Sequence record: PZ386957.1
Strand: one strand, 5' to 3'
Length of the DNA stretch: 64,000 bases
Source: a phage
How positions within the stretch are numbered: the first letter of the stretch is position 1; each line of letters opens with the position of its first letter. The translations under genes and the position numbers were made by a program. The notes under the pieces are model-generated. The model saw only the letters and a list, made by a program, of their open reading frames with translations. It made no database searches and had not been told where the DNA came from. Shown piece by piece: positions 2,962 through 23,371 of this stretch.

Positions 2962-5900
2962 ATGGCAGATTTACTAAGTCAACATTTTAAGGCCACATTT
3001 GGCTTTGATGCTGGTAATGAAAAGGTCGTCAATGTAGCATTGGCTGATAAGAACACTCTCACCGATGCCGTTAACGTTGAATTTTTCAATTACCATAACG
3101 GTATTACGCAGTATGACACAACTCGCGGTTATGATCAATACGGTACTGCAATTTATCAAAACCGTCCTTACTATGCAAAGGAAAACATCGCGAAGCCAGC
3201 GGGAGAATTTGATCCGACTAAATGGCAAGCACTGCGTACTGATCCGCGTTGGGATTACATTGCAGCGACTTCCGGCGATACTCCCCTAAAGTCTGGTGAT
3301 TATATCGCTGCGGATTGCCAATTTGCAAACTTAACATTCTCCATGCCTACTAAGCCAGCCGAAGGCGATACTATAACAGTAAAAGATATCGGTGGCAAGT
3401 GCGGTGTAAACGAATTGTCGTTCCTCGCATCTGGTCATGAGTTCTATCATAATGGCACAGTATACAATAGAAAATGGTATTGCACAACTCCTTATTCGAT
3501 GATGTATTTCATCTTTGCTCGTGGACGTTGGCATGTATACCAGACTGGAACAGAGCCGCGCGGGGTATATGCACAGCCAGCTATTGATCCAATCCAGATG
3601 CAAAACGGAGATCAGGTATTCCGTCGCAGTTCATTAGGTAATATTGTATTGAAATTACCTAAGTTTGCAAATAACGGTGATATCATCAATACCACGGACC
3701 TGGATGGATTGACCGCAACAAATCACGTTACCATCAAGACACACGAAGGAGCGCCGGACCATTCTATTGGTGCAGTCGGTGTAAAAGAGATTGTAGGCAA
3801 ACGTAGTGGTCACGGTGTATTCATCTTTGATATTACTGAAAACTTATGGCGTGTTTGGGATGGTGATCAGTCTGTACGCTTAACGCCTATCGCATCGGAT
3901 ACCCGCTTGCTGCCTAACACGTATGTCGCTGTATTCGGTGATCGCAATGTCACTTTAACATTGCCTACTAACGTAGAGATCGGGGATCGTATTCAGGTCG
4001 CATTACAATACATGCACGGTACACAAACTTGCAAGATTGTAACGTCTGGGGCAGATACCAAAATTTTAATGCAGAAAAACATGCTGCAATTCCCTAAACG
4101 CAGCGAATATCCGTTTAATGGATCTGATACGTGGAAGGAAGTAACAGAGTTATCTTTCAGTGCTGCAACTGATTATGTTCCGTATCTGGAGTTCTCTTAT
4201 TCAGAAGGTGATGACGGTAAAAAACACTGGTTAGTAGCACATGCTCATCCTATCGTAGAACGGGTAGATCCGACTCGTAAAGATCGTGTGGGTGTAATTG
4301 CGCTGGCTACTCAAGACGAAACCAATAAAAACCATGAGCAGAATCCGAGCGACGAAGTAGCTGTTACCCCTCGTGTGTTGGCTAATAAAACCGCAACCGA
4401 AACACGACGCGGTATTGCAAGAATTGCTACGCAAGCAGAAACGCATCAAAATACTGGTTCTAACTTCCTTGATGATGTTATCGTTACACCTAAAAAATTA
4501 AATGATTGTGTTGCTACTGAATCACGTCGTGGTGTGCTGGAAATTGCAACGCAAGCAGAGACTAACGAAGGTTTAGACGATACCCGCGCTATTACTCCTA
4601 AGAAATTAGAAGAACGTCGCGCGAGTGAAACGTTGGCAGGGATTGCGGAAATTATTACGGCTGGCGGTAACGCTGCGGCAGTTCGTGGTCAAGCTGGTTC
4701 CGGTATCTACGATATCAATGACCATGCTAAAATCGTTACTCCCCATAACCTGAATGAAGTTAAAGCGACAGAAACATCTCGCGGTGTAGGTTATCTGGCA
4801 ACTGACGCAGAAGTACAGGGAGCGACCGAAGCAACACCGCAAGATGCATTGTTAATCACTACCCGTACTTTGACTAAGCGTATTGCAACAGAAACGCGCA
4901 CGGGGATCGCGGAAATCGCTACTCAAGCAGAAACCAATCAGGGGCAGCTTGATACCCATATTGTTACGCCGTTAAAACTCAATAACCGTCGTGCAACCGA
5001 AACGCTACATGGTCTAGCAGAAATCGCAACTCAGGTTGAATTTGACACAGGTCGAGATGATGCTCGCATTTCTACCCCATTGAAGATTAAAACCTTCTTT
5101 GAGAATGCACAGCGTTTGAAAGTAGATCCTACTCAGGGGCTTAACCTTACTGGCGATTTGTGGCAAGGTATTACTATTCGCGGTCTGGATGCTGACGAAG
5201 CAACTAAAGGCGTTGCTAAAGTCGCTACTGTCCAGTTAACCGACGCTGGTACTGATGATACCACAATCATTACGCCGAAGAAATTACAAGGTAAAAAAGC
5301 CACTGAAGTTAAAGAAGGTATTATTCGTGTTGGTACTCAAGCCGAAACCGTAGCAGGTATACTGGATGATGTGGCAGTATCGCCGAAGAACTTCAAATAT
5401 GTTGTTCAGGTTGATGACACATGGAAAGCAACGGAAGCGCGTCGCGGTTTTCTGAAAGTATCTACAAAAGAAAACTGTTTTGTTGGTAATGACCTTGCTG
5501 GTTCCACTCAAGCAATTGATCAATATCTGCATGATGGAATCGCAGTTACCCCGCGTGGTTTAAACTATGCACTGGCTAACTTCTTACCTAAAATGGCAAC
5601 CGCTCAGAATAGTTTGAAATTAGGCAACGTAGAAGCCGCTAAATGGGCGCGTAGAGACGTTGATCAGACTATCGAGGCCAATTACACGTTTAAGAAAAAT
5701 ATCAACGTGGAGGGTGATTTAGAGTGCTTAAAATCAGGTACGTTTGAAACACTGTATGTAACCAAAAATTCAACTGACGAGGCGAGCACCGGAAATCTGG
5801 TATTAGGTATCCGTGGTCAAAATGGTCATACCGGAATTGCATTGCATGGCACAACCGGAGATATTGAGAACTCATGGGCTATGCTCGTAGGCGGTACTGG

Positions 5901-20064: not shown

Positions 20065-21066
20065 TTAGTAATGGCTAAAACCTTCGGTTACATCTTCAAC
20101 CACATAGTAACGATGACAGCGCATTTTGGCATTCGCATAATCTTTCGGGATACTTACAACGTGACGCGGATCAACTTTGCATTTAATGATTCGGCCTCGC
20201 CCACCGCCATAGTGCGGAATATAGTGTTTCGCTGCAACGTGGAGGCCATTAGAGCAAGTACGGTCATCATCTGGGTCCACATCTTTACGTTTCATTTTAA
20301 CCGTTCGTCCTGGGCTATTATCAAACGTATGCGTAAAGAAATCTTTATAATCAACATCAACACGTTTCCATGCATAGAAACAACCGTCTTCCACGATCTC
20401 AATGTCGTTGTGCTCTAAGAAGTCAAACAAACGATCTACAGCCTTACGGCTAGGGTTTTTCTTGCACTTCTCAAAGAAGTTCAGATAGTGCGTATATGGC
20501 TTATTCTCTTTAATCGACTCCACAACTCGACGAGTCAGATTATTATCAAGAACAATATTATGATAATACACAATACCATTTTCGATACGGAAAGCACCGT
20601 GATAATATACTTCAACCGCTTTCTTAATGTCAATCAGCGTAATTGCTTTAATGAAATCATTCTGCTTAACTGCCTCCAGTGCTTCATTAAAGTTAACATG
20701 TGATGGATCAGCAGTATAAACAATGTCACCACATGTAATAGTAATAAATTTAGATGAGGCTATTGCTACGATTTTTGAGGAAGTAGTCACGGGCTTTTTT
20801 GCGCGTTCACCACCTTTTCCTTTACTGGTTTTACGGCGTGTTTTACGGTTTTCTAGTGCCTTGCGACCTTCCGCTACTGCGTCTTTCTGAATCAGTAATA
20901 CACGGGAGGCAGTGCGACGAGATACGCCAAATGCTGCCGCAAGTGCTTCGCGGGTAGTAAACTTACCTTCGCCCCACTGTTTAGCCAGTTTGATTTGTTT
21001 TGCAGAGTCCAGACATTGAACGTTACGGTCAGAGACGGTGATTTTTGCTTTAGTCATATTATTCAT
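20065..21066 (-). CDS. rIIB: RIIB lysis-inhibition / rapid-lysis protein
   Basis: 333 aa; N-terminal HTH (TTREALAAAFGVSRRTASRVL) and C-terminal CSNGLHV...KVDPRHVVSIPKDYANAKMRC...VVEDVTE resemble remembered T4 rIIB; immediately downstream of rIIA. Confidence 0.75.
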   Translation of the reverse strand: MNNMTKAKITVSDRNVQCLDSAKQIKLAKQWGEGKFTTREALAAAFGVSRRTASRVLLIQKDAVAEGRKALENRKTRRKTSKGKGGERAKKPVTTSSKIVAIASSKFITITCGDIVYTADPSHVNFNEALEAVKQNDFIKAITLIDIKKAVEVYYHGAFRIENGIVYYHNIVLDNNLTRRVVESIKENKPYTHYLNFFEKCKKNPSRKAVDRLFDFLEHNDIEIVEDGCFYAWKRVDVDYKDFFTHTFDNSPGRTVKMKRKDVDPDDDRTCSNGLHVAAKHYIPHYGGGRGRIIKCKVDPRHVVSIPKDYANAKMRCHRYYVVEDVTEGFSHY

Positions 21067-21119
21067 TCCTCTATTAGTTGGGCGACTCTCGCCGCCCGAT
21101 TCACATCATTATACCAGAA

Positions 21120-21251
21120 TTATTTTGCTTCTACAACCTTGCGGATTGTGCGGTCTGATACATTATAGATTCGTGCCAGTTCGCCTTTAGTCAAGCCGCG
21201 AGCGTATTGTTTACGGATGGTTTCTTTCTGGATAGCGGTCAGTTTAGTCAT
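21120..21251 (-). CDS. small HTH protein (43 aa) between rIIA and rIIB
   Basis: Not in ORF track (<60 aa). ATG 11 nt after rIIA stop, SD AAGAGGTGA; MTKLTAIQKETIRKQYARGLTKGELARIYNVSDRTIRKVVEAK, an HTH resembling the rIIB N-terminus. Confidence 0.5.
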   Translation of the reverse strand: MTKLTAIQKETIRKQYARGLTKGELARIYNVSDRTIRKVVEAK

Positions 21252-21262
21252 AATATCACCTC

Positions 21263-23371
21263 TTAAAATTTAACATTCTTAACCAGTTTCATAAAGTCTT
21301 GTGCGCGTTTGTCGTTATGTAGAATACGATACCAGTTATCTACAATATCATACAGTAACGGGCTATTCTCTTTAAACTTCGCACAGACTGCTTTAATTCG
21401 TTCGTTTGCTGCCGTGAATTTTTCATCACAGATCTTTTTAGTTTCTTCGTCCATAATCCAACGAGTACGAAGGAGTAACTTGGAAACCTCTTTATTATAA
21501 TGACGACCGTACAGTCTGTCAATAAATTCTGGAATACAGCGTTCTAATTCATCGTCATGATACAGCATAGTGATCACGCCCAGATATTCGCCATACCCCA
21601 GATGGTTGGTCTTAACCTTCTTAGCCAGACCAGCCAGCTTACCGCGAACAAATTCTAGCGCACATTCCAGTTGTTCGTCAACGAGATATTTTTGTGTCTC
21701 GTTACGGGTAATAATATACTTTGTTACCCCGAAGTAGTCAAGCGCCTTGTGTAAGGTATCTTCATTGTAAATCGATTGACGGCTGCGGCTTTCAAATGCA
21801 TCACCTACACGGAACATATGCAAACCGGACAGTTCGCGGATCTCAGCCGCTTTCATGTGATGGCTGGTTTGGTGCCAATCATCACCAATCTTTTCCATGA
21901 TATACACGTTAGGCAGCTTAGGAGTCGTTTCACGCTGTGTACGCTCGGTCTTCTCCGGCTTAACTGCTTTAGCACGCAGATCATCGGCCTCAGACACTTT
22001 AATCACGGTCATTTCCGATTCATCATAATACTGTTTGATATACTCGAAAGTCTCCATGTGTTTTTCGTTGCTCTGACGGAACACCAGTACTTTTTTATTG
22101 ATGCCGTATTCCTGGACCATGCCGTTAAGAGTCAGTGCACGCAATTTCGGTTTATCGGTATCATCAATTACACACAGAATATCTTCTTTATGAATCCATA
22201 CAAAGTGCGTAATGTTGTATTGACTGCTAACGAAAGCAGGGCGCAATTTGCTGATCGTGTGTCGAGTACGATACAGAGTATACACTTGACCTTCTACGTC
22301 ATTAGGTGAATCTTTACCAGCATTCACAAACTTATTATAGATTTCTACCGGGTCATCCCACTGTCCGATCTTACCCATCTTGCTAATAATATTACGTTGA
22401 GTCGATGAATACTCGCTCATAAATTGCGCAAGTTTACGCTCTGTTTTAATGTTGGCGATCTTCTCTTTAACCTTTTCCAACATCATTTCATTGATTTCTG
22501 CAATGCGTTTTTCGATGTTCGCTTTAGTCTCAATTGACAAGTGAACTTCTTCACGCGATGGCATCAGGTCCAGATCACCTAACTCGAAATTGATGTAAAT
22601 GGTCTGGTGCTGGCGGTTTACAGCTTCTAACCATGTCCCGCGAACATATTCATACGGGATCGGATACTGGATCTTACCCATGATTGCATATACCACGTAG
22701 GAATCGTTATCACGTCCATCACAAACATAATAATTATCAAAGCTAGGGAAATAATTAATTTCGATTGCATTGATATTAGGTTTGTGTTCCCCAAAATGAC
22801 GCAGTACAAATTGCGCTTCTCGATGCCATGTCTGAATGTCTTTTTCTTTCACTGGAATAGTGATTTTCAGACCATTGTCTTCATCGGTCGGTTCGTCGAA
22901 AATCTGCACCATTTTCGGCATAGAGTTTTGCACAAATGCCGTAAAGCCATAAGCGCGACCATTGTAATAGTTTACGATTGTAAAGGTGTCGGTGTAGCTA
23001 TACGCAGATTTCGCACCTAAACCAAAAGATCCAATATAATCATTAGTCTGGTCTTTTGTTGATTCAAAGTAAACCGTAAACAGTTTTTCTAATTCCTTCT
23101 TAGATACAATGCCAGTACCATAGTCACGCACAGAGAAATAAGGTTCAATTGCGGTAGGCAAATGAATATCAAACGGACGATCTAAGGTTCCGGCTTCTTT
23201 GTGAGTGTCGGTAGCATTGCATGAATACTCACGGACGCAAGCACGCTCACAATATTGATAAGTGTTCTTAGAAAGCACCATAAAAGCCTTGCTGCTTGCT
23301 TTCAGAGAAAAATCAACCGCACCGCTCAGATCACTGCCAAATACTTCTTCATTATCAATATGCATTTTCAT
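21263..23371 (-). CDS. rIIA: RIIA protein (GHKL-type ATPase domain)
   Basis: 702 aa; SVRDYGTGI, DYIGSFGLGAKSAYSYTDTFTI, YGFTAF and overall architecture match remembered T4 rIIA. Confidence 0.88.
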   Translation of the reverse strand: MKMHIDNEEVFGSDLSGAVDFSLKASSKAFMVLSKNTYQYCERACVREYSCNATDTHKEAGTLDRPFDIHLPTAIEPYFSVRDYGTGIVSKKELEKLFTVYFESTKDQTNDYIGSFGLGAKSAYSYTDTFTIVNYYNGRAYGFTAFVQNSMPKMVQIFDEPTDEDNGLKITIPVKEKDIQTWHREAQFVLRHFGEHKPNINAIEINYFPSFDNYYVCDGRDNDSYVVYAIMGKIQYPIPYEYVRGTWLEAVNRQHQTIYINFELGDLDLMPSREEVHLSIETKANIEKRIAEINEMMLEKVKEKIANIKTERKLAQFMSEYSSTQRNIISKMGKIGQWDDPVEIYNKFVNAGKDSPNDVEGQVYTLYRTRHTISKLRPAFVSSQYNITHFVWIHKEDILCVIDDTDKPKLRALTLNGMVQEYGINKKVLVFRQSNEKHMETFEYIKQYYDESEMTVIKVSEADDLRAKAVKPEKTERTQRETTPKLPNVYIMEKIGDDWHQTSHHMKAAEIRELSGLHMFRVGDAFESRSRQSIYNEDTLHKALDYFGVTKYIITRNETQKYLVDEQLECALEFVRGKLAGLAKKVKTNHLGYGEYLGVITMLYHDDELERCIPEFIDRLYGRHYNKEVSKLLLRTRWIMDEETKKICDEKFTAANERIKAVCAKFKENSPLLYDIVDNWYRILHNDKRAQDFMKLVKNVKF

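What the first reader, a model, noticed from the sequence alone, without database searches (positions are those of the whole stretch)
21120..21251. Unannotated 43-aa HTH mini-gene between rIIA and rIIB that resembles the rIIB N-terminus
Eleven nucleotides after the rIIA stop, with SD AAGAGGTGA, a 43-codon ORF encodes a helix-turn-helix peptide (GLTKGELARIYNVSDRTIRKVV). The full rIIB that follows begins with a similar HTH (FTTREALAAAFGVSRRTASRVL). This looks like a partial duplication of the rIIB N-terminus or a small regulatory protein, inserted at the classical rIIA-rIIB junction.
Basis: seen in the sequence. Interest (0 to 1): 0.5.

Follow-up and report, generated by a model that had tools for sequence, protein, structure and literature searches.

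The report
Free-standing rIIB-type HTH mini-gene
A real, strongly conserved 43-codon gene lies between the classic rIIA and rIIB genes of RB49-like phages and encodes a free-standing copy of the helix-turn-helix module that normally forms the start of rIIB; databases already list it as a hypothetical protein and its role has never been tested.

Summary
The ORF exists as described, on the minus strand (21251->21120). It starts 11 nt after the rIIA stop and has a GAGGTGA Shine-Dalgarno. It is a genuine gene. All 59 cultured Krischvirus genomes carry it, 54 with an identical protein. Three uncultured lineages carry it in the same position. Their rIIA is only 36-43% identical between lineages, while the mini-protein stays 71-77% identical (dN/dS 0.13-0.36, changes mostly at codon position 3). 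AlphaFold gives a confident three-helix HTH (pLDDT 90.7). It is not unannotated: it is RB49p274 and PHROG 15481, function unknown. BLASTP finds no similarity to the phage's own rIIB N-terminus. A profile of canonical rIIB N-termini from 70 other lineages scores it at 33 bits (E 2e-12), higher than the resident rIIB HTH (9-19 bits). It also occupies exactly the position where rIIB starts in T4 (rIIA stop + 11 nt + ATG). The best reading is a detached or duplicated rIIB N-terminal module, co-translated with rIIA and working with the rII system. An origin from a homing-endonuclease-type HTH is not excluded. Function is untested. Interest is moderate.

The parts
21263..23371 (-). rIIA (702 aa); its stop TAA (21265-21263) directly precedes the mini-gene Shine-Dalgarno
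   Evidence: ORF list; annotated RIIA in relatives; weak GHKL ATPase (HATPase_c_3) hit
21256..21262 (-). Shine-Dalgarno GAGGTGA of the mini-gene, 4 nt before the ATG. The whole 11-nt rIIA-mini gap is invariant in 16 Krischvirus sequences.
   Evidence: GAGGT is also present in L022 and L024; L021 has GGTGA.
21120..21251 (-). Mini-gene: 43 codons, basic (pI 10.4) three-helix HTH protein; family RB49p274 / phrog_15481
21108..21136 (-). Sigma-70-type promoter-like element for rIIB: -35-like TTGTAG (21136-21131, inside mini-gene codons 39-41), 17-nt spacer, perfect extended -10 TGGTATAAT (21116-21108)
   Evidence: Read from sequence. The same site is annotated as a promoter in GEC-3S, and TTGTAG-17-TGGTATAAT is conserved in L021. 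The consensus scanner did NOT call it, because the -35 matches only 3/6. Inferred, not shown.
21080..21097 (-). Hairpin GGGCGGC-GAGA-GUCGCCC (7 bp, tetraloop) with no U-tract. The stem is invariant and the loop variable in Krischvirus.
   Evidence: Hairpins of different sequence occur at the same place in L021, L022 (z -4.6) and L024 (z -3.2). No terminator call and no Rfam match.
20065..21066 (-). rIIB (333 aa from the first ATG). SD spacing favours the second ATG at 21057 (330 aa), which is what most records annotate.
   Evidence: phrog_609 RIIB E 2e-106
20890..21006 (-). Resident rIIB N-terminal HTH (residues 21-59 of the 333-aa form), a divergent copy of the same module
   Evidence: AF2 helices 21-32, 39-45, 50-59 with pLDDT ~96; rIIB-N profile best domain 18.6 bits; alignment A1

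Best explanation
The ORF is a functional early gene encoding a 43-residue, strongly basic, three-helix helix-turn-helix protein.

It is translated from the rIIA transcript by coupling to the rIIA stop codon. Its Shine-Dalgarno abuts the stop, with a 4-11 nt gap in every lineage.

The protein is a free-standing copy of the HTH module that forms the first ~45 residues of rIIB in T4 and most relatives. It sits at the very position where rIIB starts in T4.

It most likely arose in the common ancestor of Krischvirus and a few uncultured relatives by partial duplication or fission of the 5' end of rIIB. After that event the downstream rIIB kept a second, now divergent, HTH and gained its own promoter region.

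I infer that it acts in trans as the nucleic-acid-binding or partner-binding module of the rIIA/rIIB system.

Shown here: real gene, purifying selection, fold, family homology, positional equivalence. Inferred: the origin, DNA binding, and cooperation with rIIA/rIIB.
For: Gene reality:
- 59/59 cultured Krischvirus genomes carry it; 54 have an identical protein and 5 differ by one residue.
- Within Krischvirus there are 6 synonymous and 3 non-synonymous changes, two of them at the penultimate residue; binomial P = 0.008.
- Homologues at 86, 77 and 69% identity are all 43-45 aa and all lie between rIIA and rIIB.
- Between lineages the mini-protein is 71-77% identical, rIIA 36-43% and rIIB 40-62%. 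dN/dS is 0.13-0.36.
- Differences by codon position are, for example, 7/2/22 and 8/7/27, and one Ser codon switches between TCA and AGC.
- An 11-nt deletion in phage G37-3 keeps the stop codon.

Fold:
- AF2 pLDDT 90.7 with helices 6-18, 22-28, 33-41.
- The layout matches the rIIB N-terminus, helices 21-32, 39-45, 50-59.
- Foldseek returns DNA-binding tri-helical HTHs: IstA, resolvase, CENP-B, NarL.

Homology to rIIB-N:
- The best non-self tblastn hits are residues 3-42 of rIIB in Jiaodavirus, Karamvirus and Winklervirus.
- A profile of 70 rIIB N-termini from outside the clade gives 27.8-32.8 bits to the mini-proteins, 9.4-18.8 to the resident HTHs and 48 to T4.
- That profile hits only this ORF and rIIB in the six-frame window.

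Position:
- T4 reads rIIA-TAA + 11 nt + ATG(rIIB); this window reads rIIA-TAA + 11 nt + ATG(mini).

Module duplication is active in this clade:
- rIIB of L021 has three tandem HTH modules.
Against: - No expression, binding or genetic data exist for this ORF.
- With the mini-HMM, the HTH modules of HNH and GIY-YIG homing endonucleases from a 1.84-billion-protein library score 39-49 bits. rIIB N-termini score 25-33 bits. rIIB is therefore not uniquely the nearest relative.
- About 40 residues cannot resolve the phylogeny.
- The mini-gene and rIIB are in different reading frames in all lineages, so there is no simple stop-codon fission scar.
- A 43-aa monomeric HTH with no dimerisation element may bind DNA only weakly on its own.
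- The mechanism of rIIB is itself unknown.
Confidence: 0.55

Rival explanations
1. The mini-protein is an HTH captured from elsewhere, for example the DNA-binding domain of an HNH or GIY-YIG homing endonuclease that once sat at the rIIA-rIIB junction. It was then domesticated. Its likeness to rIIB-N only reflects membership of the same broad HTH subfamily.
For: The highest single-module scores to the mini-HMM are endonuclease HTHs: P0095 NUMOD4+HNH_3 at 48.8 bits, P0113 HNH_3 at 46.8, P0146 GIY-YIG at 42.2. BLOSUM module scores are 87-111 against these and at most 90 against rIIB modules. T4-like genomes are known to be rich in homing endonucleases (general knowledge).
Against: - Those endonucleases were picked as the extremes of 1.84e9 proteins. 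They sit in unrelated phages, not at rII loci.
- Among 50,697 phage genomes the best non-self hits are rIIB N-termini, not endonucleases.
- No nuclease remnant fits between rIIA and the 53-nt spacer in any of the four lineages.
- An endonuclease HTH is C-terminal and would need a new start. This ORF instead starts exactly where rIIB starts in T4, with an rIIA-coupled SD.
- No other gene in the window has this HTH.
Confidence: 0.2
2. Whatever its origin, the protein is an autonomous small transcription regulator, for example of the rIIB promoter that overlaps its own 3' end or of other early genes. On this reading it is not a working part of the rIIA/rIIB machinery.
For: - Basic DNA-binding-type HTH.
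- PHROG neighbours include transcriptional regulators and a late activator.
- A promoter-like TTGTAG-17-TGGTATAAT overlaps the gene end.
- Iyer et al. regard rIIB itself as a specific transcription factor (PMC7824862).
Against: - No operator-like repeat was identified.
- The promoter geometry is not conserved in L022 and L024 while the protein is.
- Strict linkage and translational coupling to rIIA in all lineages argues for a shared function.
- There is no dimerisation element.
Confidence: 0.2
3. The ORF is not translated. The stretch is conserved as a nucleotide-level 5' leader or promoter region of rIIB, or is a decaying gene fragment.
For: - The 3' end of the ORF overlaps a promoter-like -35.
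- The junction is slightly more conserved (97-99%) than the 3.4-kb region (95-96%) within Krischvirus.
- Synonymous divergence between the window and L021 is lower than in the neighbouring genes (pS 0.49 vs 0.71).
Against: - Across lineages nucleotide identity falls to 62-76% while the protein stays 71-77% identical, with changes concentrated at codon position 3.
- Length (43-45 aa), start context and stop are kept in four lineages.
- The mini-HMM's best match to another kind of protein in 1.84e9 sequences is 49 bits, so the sequence is protein-like.
- AF2 pLDDT is 90.7.
- dN/dS is 0.13-0.36.
Confidence: 0.04

Closest known systems
N-terminal HTH module of T4 RIIB (NP_049889.1 residues ~3-50; PHROG 609; precedes the Pfam PF26926 Phage_T4_rIIB core)
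   Same: - Same three-helix HTH with the same helix spacing.
- Shared signature: (K/C)L(T/S)..QK..I...Y..G.TK.ELA..Y.VS..TIR.V.
- Same genomic position, starting 0-11 nt after the rIIA stop with an SD at the stop.
- 51% identical to the Jiaodavirus rIIB N-terminus.
   Different: - It is a separate 43-aa polypeptide, not fused to the rIIB core.
- It is separated from rIIB by a stop, a promoter-like element and a hairpin, and lies in another reading frame.
- It coexists with a second, divergent HTH at the N-terminus of the resident rIIB.
C-terminal or N-terminal HTH DNA-binding modules of phage homing endonucleases (NUMOD4/HNH_3, GIY-YIG, T5orf172)
   Same: Same HTH subfamily; these give the highest single-module scores to the mini-protein profile, 39-49 bits.
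   Different: No nuclease domain is present or has room to be present. The matching endonucleases are in unrelated phages and contexts.
Generic tri-helical HTH domains of Pfam clan HTH (CENP-B_N PF04218, HTH_7 resolvase, HTH_23/28, Sigma70_r4)
   Same: Fold and sequence pattern match. CENP-B_N scores 26 bits, above its threshold. Foldseek TM 0.72-0.79 to IstA, resolvase, CENP-B and NarL HTHs.
   Different: Those domains are parts of larger enzymes or regulators. Here the HTH is the whole protein. All families except CENP-B_N are below their thresholds.
RB49p274 / phi1p274 / PHROG 15481 (hypothetical protein)
   Same: It is this family: full-length match, E 3e-34, and 100% identical to the RB49 protein.
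   Different: Nothing differs. The family has no assigned function, and no link to rIIB was found in the records or papers searched.

Membership tests
rIIB N-terminal HTH module | Significant match to a profile built from rIIB N-termini | tested here: met
   Profile of 70 rIIB N-termini from outside the clade: 32.8 bits, E 2.4e-12 for the single comparison; 2000 shuffles reach at most 9.9 bits. In the six-frame window scan it scores 34.1 bits, E 9.8e-10, the top hit.
rIIB N-terminal HTH module | Three-helix HTH fold with the same helix lengths and spacing | tested here: met
   Mini-protein H6-18/H22-28/H33-41, pLDDT 90.7; window rIIB H21-32/H39-45/H50-59, pLDDT ~96. No direct structural superposition was run.
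rIIB N-terminal HTH module | Starts immediately downstream of the rIIA stop with a coupled ribosome-binding site | tested here: met
   Gap of 11 nt here and in T4; 11, 10 and 4 nt in L022, L024 and L021
rIIB N-terminal HTH module | Covalently continuous with the rIIB core (PF26926) | tested here: not met
   Stop codon, 53-62-nt spacer, and a different reading frame in all four lineages. It is therefore a homologue of the module, not part of an rIIB protein.
rIIB N-terminal HTH module | rIIB modules are its nearest relatives (common descent rather than shared subfamily) | tested here: inconclusive
   rIIB N-termini are nearest among cultured phage genomes. In the 1.84e9-protein library, endonuclease HTHs score higher.
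PHROG 15481 / RB49p274 family | Full-length match to the family profile | tested here: met
   E 3e-34, 117.7 bits, positions 1-43 of 43
Pfam CENP-B_N (PF04218), tri-helical HTH | Score above the curated gathering threshold | tested here: met
   26.0 bits against a cutoff of 21.2. This is a fold-class assignment only and says nothing about function.
Sigma-70 region 4 / resolvase HTH_7 / HTH_28 / HTH_23 | Score above the curated gathering threshold | tested here: not met
   21.1 vs 24.1; 18.3 vs 23.8; 20.4 vs 25; 17.6 vs 24.6
Homing endonuclease (HNH_3/NUMOD4 or GIY-YIG) | Nuclease catalytic domain | tested here: not met
   The protein is 43 aa of HTH only. The flanks are rIIA and a 53-nt spacer, and the layout is the same in four lineages.
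DNA-binding transcription regulator | Sequence-specific DNA binding and an effect on transcription | not testable with these tools
   Only composition (pI 10.4, 11 K/R) and fold class bear on it.

The most novel reading that the evidence does not exclude
The mini-protein is a third, trans-acting component of the rII system. On this reading the N-terminal HTH of rIIB has an important function of its own. That stretch corresponds to the start of the B cistron, which classical T4 genetics treated as dispensable (recalled knowledge, not verified here). The function can be supplied by a separate 5-kDa protein, and it is under stronger constraint than rIIA or rIIB themselves. Candidate roles are tethering or targeting the rIIA/rIIB complex to DNA, or tuning how host defences (RexAB, rIIB-sensing gasdermin/CARD systems) see it.
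Probability: 0.25. Interest if true: 0.65.

Novelty: new variant of a known kind. Interest (0 to 1): 0.42.

Why it matters
rIIA and rIIB are among the most famous genes in genetics, yet their molecular mechanism is still unknown. This analysis gives three results:
- The first ~45 residues of rIIB are an autonomous HTH module.
- One phage clade encodes that module as a separate gene.
- The separate gene is more conserved than rIIA or rIIB.

Together they give a clean genetic handle. The module can be deleted, swapped or supplied in trans without touching the rIIB core. That makes it directly testable whether the module binds DNA, binds rIIA/rIIB, or affects recognition by defences such as RexAB and the rIIB-triggered gasdermin system.

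On the practical side, it supports renaming a 'hypothetical protein' present in every Krischvirus genome. Phages of this genus are candidates for therapy.

Tried and rejected
With rIIB as query, IMG/VR gave only two near-identical loci. I therefore used GenBank phage records and metagenome look-ups instead.
- BLASTP of the mini-protein against the resident rIIB gave nothing.
- The consensus promoter/terminator scan did not call the TTGTAG-17-TGGTATAAT element or any terminator at the hairpin, so the promoter stays an inference. Rfam found no match.
- Hairpin as a 5' stabiliser of rIIB mRNA: doubtful. In L021 and L022 the -10-like hexamer lies too close to the stem or inside the loop.
- Endonuclease-remnant idea: the contexts of the best-matching endonucleases (P0095, P0113) are unrelated phages.
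- Small standalone HTH P0204 and the five-module array P0077 are not at rII loci.
- A simple read-through or stop-codon fission scar was rejected: the mini-gene and rIIB are out of frame in all lineages (coordinates).
- Literature searches for RB49p274, r1589 and Krischvirus essentiality gave nothing specific.
- hhalign of the two small alignments gave 90.5% probability, but with a poorly handled gap region. I rely on the HMMER scores instead.

Full report
**What is there**

The window is a Krischvirus, an RB49-like member of Straboviridae. A 3.4-kb query across the locus matches 59 phage records at 90-96% identity.

All genes of the locus are on the minus strand:
- rIIA: 21263-23371, 702 aa.
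- The 43-codon ORF: 21120-21251.
- rIIB: 20065-21066, 333 aa.

The rIIA stop TAA is followed by 11 nt, GAGGTGATATT, and then the ORF's ATG.

**Annotation status**

The ORF is not unannotated in public data.
- It is a CDS called 'hypothetical protein' in nearly all Krischvirus records: RB49p274 NP_891845.1, KFS-EC YP_010097294.1 and UPWr_E1.
- Phage W115 calls it 'DNA binding HTH domain protein'.
- PHROGs holds a dedicated 43-position family, phrog_15481, function unknown, matched at E 3e-34.
- I found no paper that discusses it.

**Is it a real gene?**

*Within Krischvirus:*
- tblastn finds the protein in 59 records. Of these, 54 are identical and 5 differ by one residue.
- In 16 aligned genomes I count six synonymous and three non-synonymous changes. 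Two of the non-synonymous changes are at the penultimate residue. The 11-nt SD gap is invariant.
- Three or fewer non-synonymous changes out of nine has P = 0.008 under neutrality.
- Phage G37-3 has an 11-nt deletion just past the ORF that still preserves its stop codon.

These genomes are too similar for a strong test, so divergent copies matter more.

*Divergent copies:*
- The 5.8-billion-protein search returned five clusters at 98, 86, 86, 77 and 69% identity, all exactly 43 aa.
- Their contigs show the same order, rIIA - mini-ORF - rIIB (- topoisomerase), in L021 and L022.
- A further lineage, L024/L025, has a 45-aa version.

*Between lineages:*

| Protein | Identity between lineages |
|---|---|
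| mini-protein | 71-77% |
| rIIA | 36-43% |
| rIIB | 40-62% |

- dN/dS for the mini-gene is 0.13-0.36.
- Nucleotide identity falls to 62-76%, with differences concentrated at codon position 3, for example 7/2/22 and 8/7/27 at positions 1/2/3.
- One serine is encoded by TCA in two lineages and by AGC in another.

This is protein-level purifying selection. The 'nucleotide-only leader' alternative is essentially excluded.

**Fold**

- AlphaFold2 on the family alignment gives pLDDT 90.7, with helices at 6-18, 22-28 and 33-41.
- Foldseek returns only DNA-binding tri-helical HTH domains at TM 0.7-0.8: IstA transposase, gamma-delta resolvase, CENP-B and NarL/LuxR. No E-value is significant, as expected for 43 residues.
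- Pfam CENP-B_N is above its threshold (26 vs 21.2 bits). Other HTH families are below theirs.
- The protein is very basic: pI 10.4, with 11 K/R against 4 D/E.

**Relation to rIIB**

- BLASTP finds nothing.
- Identity in alignment is 30%.
- The mini-HMM gives 2 bits.

The family-level relationship, however, is solid.
- **Cultured phages.** The best non-self tblastn hits among 50,697 phage genomes are residues ~3-42 of rIIB in Jiaodavirus, Karamvirus (CC31) and Winklervirus. Identity is 44-52%.
- **Mini-HMM against rIIB.** The HMM finds a full-length module at residues ~5-45 of most of 75 rIIB proteins, scoring up to 33 bits.
- **Reciprocal profile.** I built a profile from the N-termini of 70 rIIBs outside the mini-gene clade:

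| Target | Score (bits) |
|---|---|
| mini-proteins | 27.8-32.8 |
| resident rIIB HTHs of the mini-carrying lineages (best domain) | 9.4-18.8 |
| T4 rIIB residues 3-50 | 48 |

  The mini-protein score has E 2.4e-12 for the single comparison, and 2000 shuffles reach at most 9.9 bits.
- **Whole window.** In a six-frame scan of all 64 kb, this profile picks out only two segments: the mini-ORF (34.1 bits) and rIIB.
- **Structure.** The AF2 model of the window's rIIB has an N-terminal three-helix module (21-32, 39-45, 50-59) with the same layout. A long helix, a disordered linker and the core follow it.

So the mini-protein looks more like a canonical rIIB N-terminus than the N-terminus of its own phage's rIIB does.

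**Position**

- In T4 the junction reads rIIA-TAA, 11 nt (TAAGGAAAATT), ATG of rIIB.
- Here it reads rIIA-TAA, 11 nt (GAGGTGATATT), ATG of the mini-gene.
- The gap is 11, 10 and 4 nt in L022, L024 and L021. It is 0 nt for rIIB in the Jiaodavirus Kpn6N.

The mini-gene therefore occupies the ancestral start position of rIIB and keeps its coupling to rIIA. The resident rIIB lies further downstream, behind these elements:
- **A promoter-like element.** TTGTAG-17-TGGTATAAT is annotated as a promoter in GEC-3S and conserved in L021. The consensus scanner did not call it.
- **A GC-rich hairpin.** It lacks a U-tract and is present with a different sequence in all four lineages.

The next outgroup, L026, has no mini-gene. 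Its 83-nt gap holds a hairpin and then a TTTACA-17-TATAAT promoter.

**Origin**

The simplest history is a partial duplication or fission of the rIIB 5' end in the ancestor of this clade.
- Module duplication is demonstrably active there. The 459-aa rIIB of L021 carries three tandem HTH modules, two of them close paralogues.
- An rIIB of 775 aa with several modules also exists.

This origin is not proven. In an unbiased hmmsearch of 1.84 billion representatives, the family itself is compact. By best single module, the top outsiders are the HTH domains of HNH/NUMOD4, GIY-YIG and T5orf172 homing endonucleases. They score 39-49 bits, against 25-33 bits for rIIB N-termini.

Those endonucleases are extremes drawn from an enormous pool. 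They sit in unrelated phages, not at rII loci, and there is no room for a nuclease remnant here. I therefore rate an endonuclease-derived origin at about 0.2. Forty residues cannot settle it.

**Function**

Nothing has been tested experimentally.
- The mechanism of rIIA/rIIB is itself unknown. rIIB is required to overcome RexAB, and it is also the trigger of a bacterial gasdermin/CARD system. Iyer et al. consider it a transcription factor (PMC7824862).
- From memory, not verified here: classical T4 work (the r1589 fusion and the Crick-Brenner frameshift region) treated the start of the B cistron as dispensable for B function. That stretch would correspond to this HTH.
- The BASEL paper only shows that an r1589-like fusion phage is Rex-sensitive. 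That result is uninformative about the HTH, because A function is lost in that fusion.

My committed reading is as follows. The mini-protein is the detached nucleic-acid-binding or partner-binding module of the rII system. It is made together with rIIA and acts in trans. Its constraint, higher than that on rIIA or rIIB, indicates that the module has an important function of its own. An autonomous small regulator remains a serious alternative.

**Verdict**

- The gene is already catalogued but uncharacterised.
- As far as the searched sources show, three points are new: the link to the canonical rIIB N-terminus, the positional equivalence with the T4 rIIB start, and the unusually strong conservation.

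This is a three-gene variant of the classical rII locus, of moderate interest.

Noticed in passing
window 21080-21097 (-); L021 4634-4653; L022 2722-2745; L024 3964-3981; L026 ~3922-3941: A 7-9-bp GC-rich hairpin with no U-tract sits between the mini-gene and rIIB in all four lineages. Each has a different sequence. Within Krischvirus the stem is invariant and the loop varies (GAGA/GATA/AATA/GTTA). In the outgroup L026 the hairpin lies before the promoter instead of after the -10. Its role is unknown; it could mark a 3' end, a processing site or a stabiliser.
   Followed up: partly
L021 4685-6064 (protein P0009): This uncultured relative's rIIB is 459 aa. It carries three tandem HTH modules (about aa 1-48, 58-105, 145-195) ahead of the conserved core, in addition to the separate mini-gene. 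Modules 2 and 3 are close paralogues. Another rIIB (P0137, L036) is 775 aa with several modules.
   Followed up: partly
L010 (phage vB_EcoM_G37-3), equivalent to window ~21109-21119: An 11-nt deletion between AAATAAT / GTATAAT repeats removes the TGGTATAAT extended -10 but leaves the mini-gene stop codon intact.
   Followed up: no
window 21055-21066 (-): rIIB has two in-frame ATGs (MNNM...). The GAGGA Shine-Dalgarno abuts the first ATG and lies 9 nt before the second. The 330-aa form starting at 21057, used by most records, is therefore more likely than the 333-aa ORF.
   Followed up: partly
window 21242-21252 and 21048-21058 (-): The mini-gene and rIIB (second ATG) share the 10-mer TATGACTAAA, so both begin Met-Thr-Lys in Krischvirus. 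The match is weaker or absent in the other lineages. It could be a vestige of duplication, gene conversion or chance.
   Followed up: no
proteins P0077-P0109 etc. (e.g. L035 4073-4903): Many metagenomic proteins consist of 4-7 tandem copies of this HTH module and have no rIIB core. P0077 (5 modules) sits in a virus-like contig with ThyX and ankyrin genes, not at an rII locus. Function is unknown.
   Followed up: partly
L003 (KpV477 NC_031087) vs L004 (Kpn6N): The RefSeq rIIA CDS of KpV477 is annotated as overlapping rIIB by 178 nt. In the near-identical Kpn6N, rIIA ends right before the rIIB ATG. This is probably an annotation inconsistency.
   Followed up: no
L012 (Ec_Makalu_001) and Ec_Makalu_003 records: Many Krischvirus records are linearised exactly between the rIIA stop and the mini-gene SD, following the T4 convention. 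The Makalu_001 and Makalu_003 records appear to start inside the mini-gene (their matches begin 9-21 nt later than in the other records), and no CDS is annotated for it there.
   Followed up: no
window 21263-23371 (-): rIIA gives only a weak, sub-threshold HATPase_c_3 (GHKL ATPase) hit at residues 77-139. This is consistent with the published GHKL assignment for rIIA (PMC7824862).
   Followed up: no
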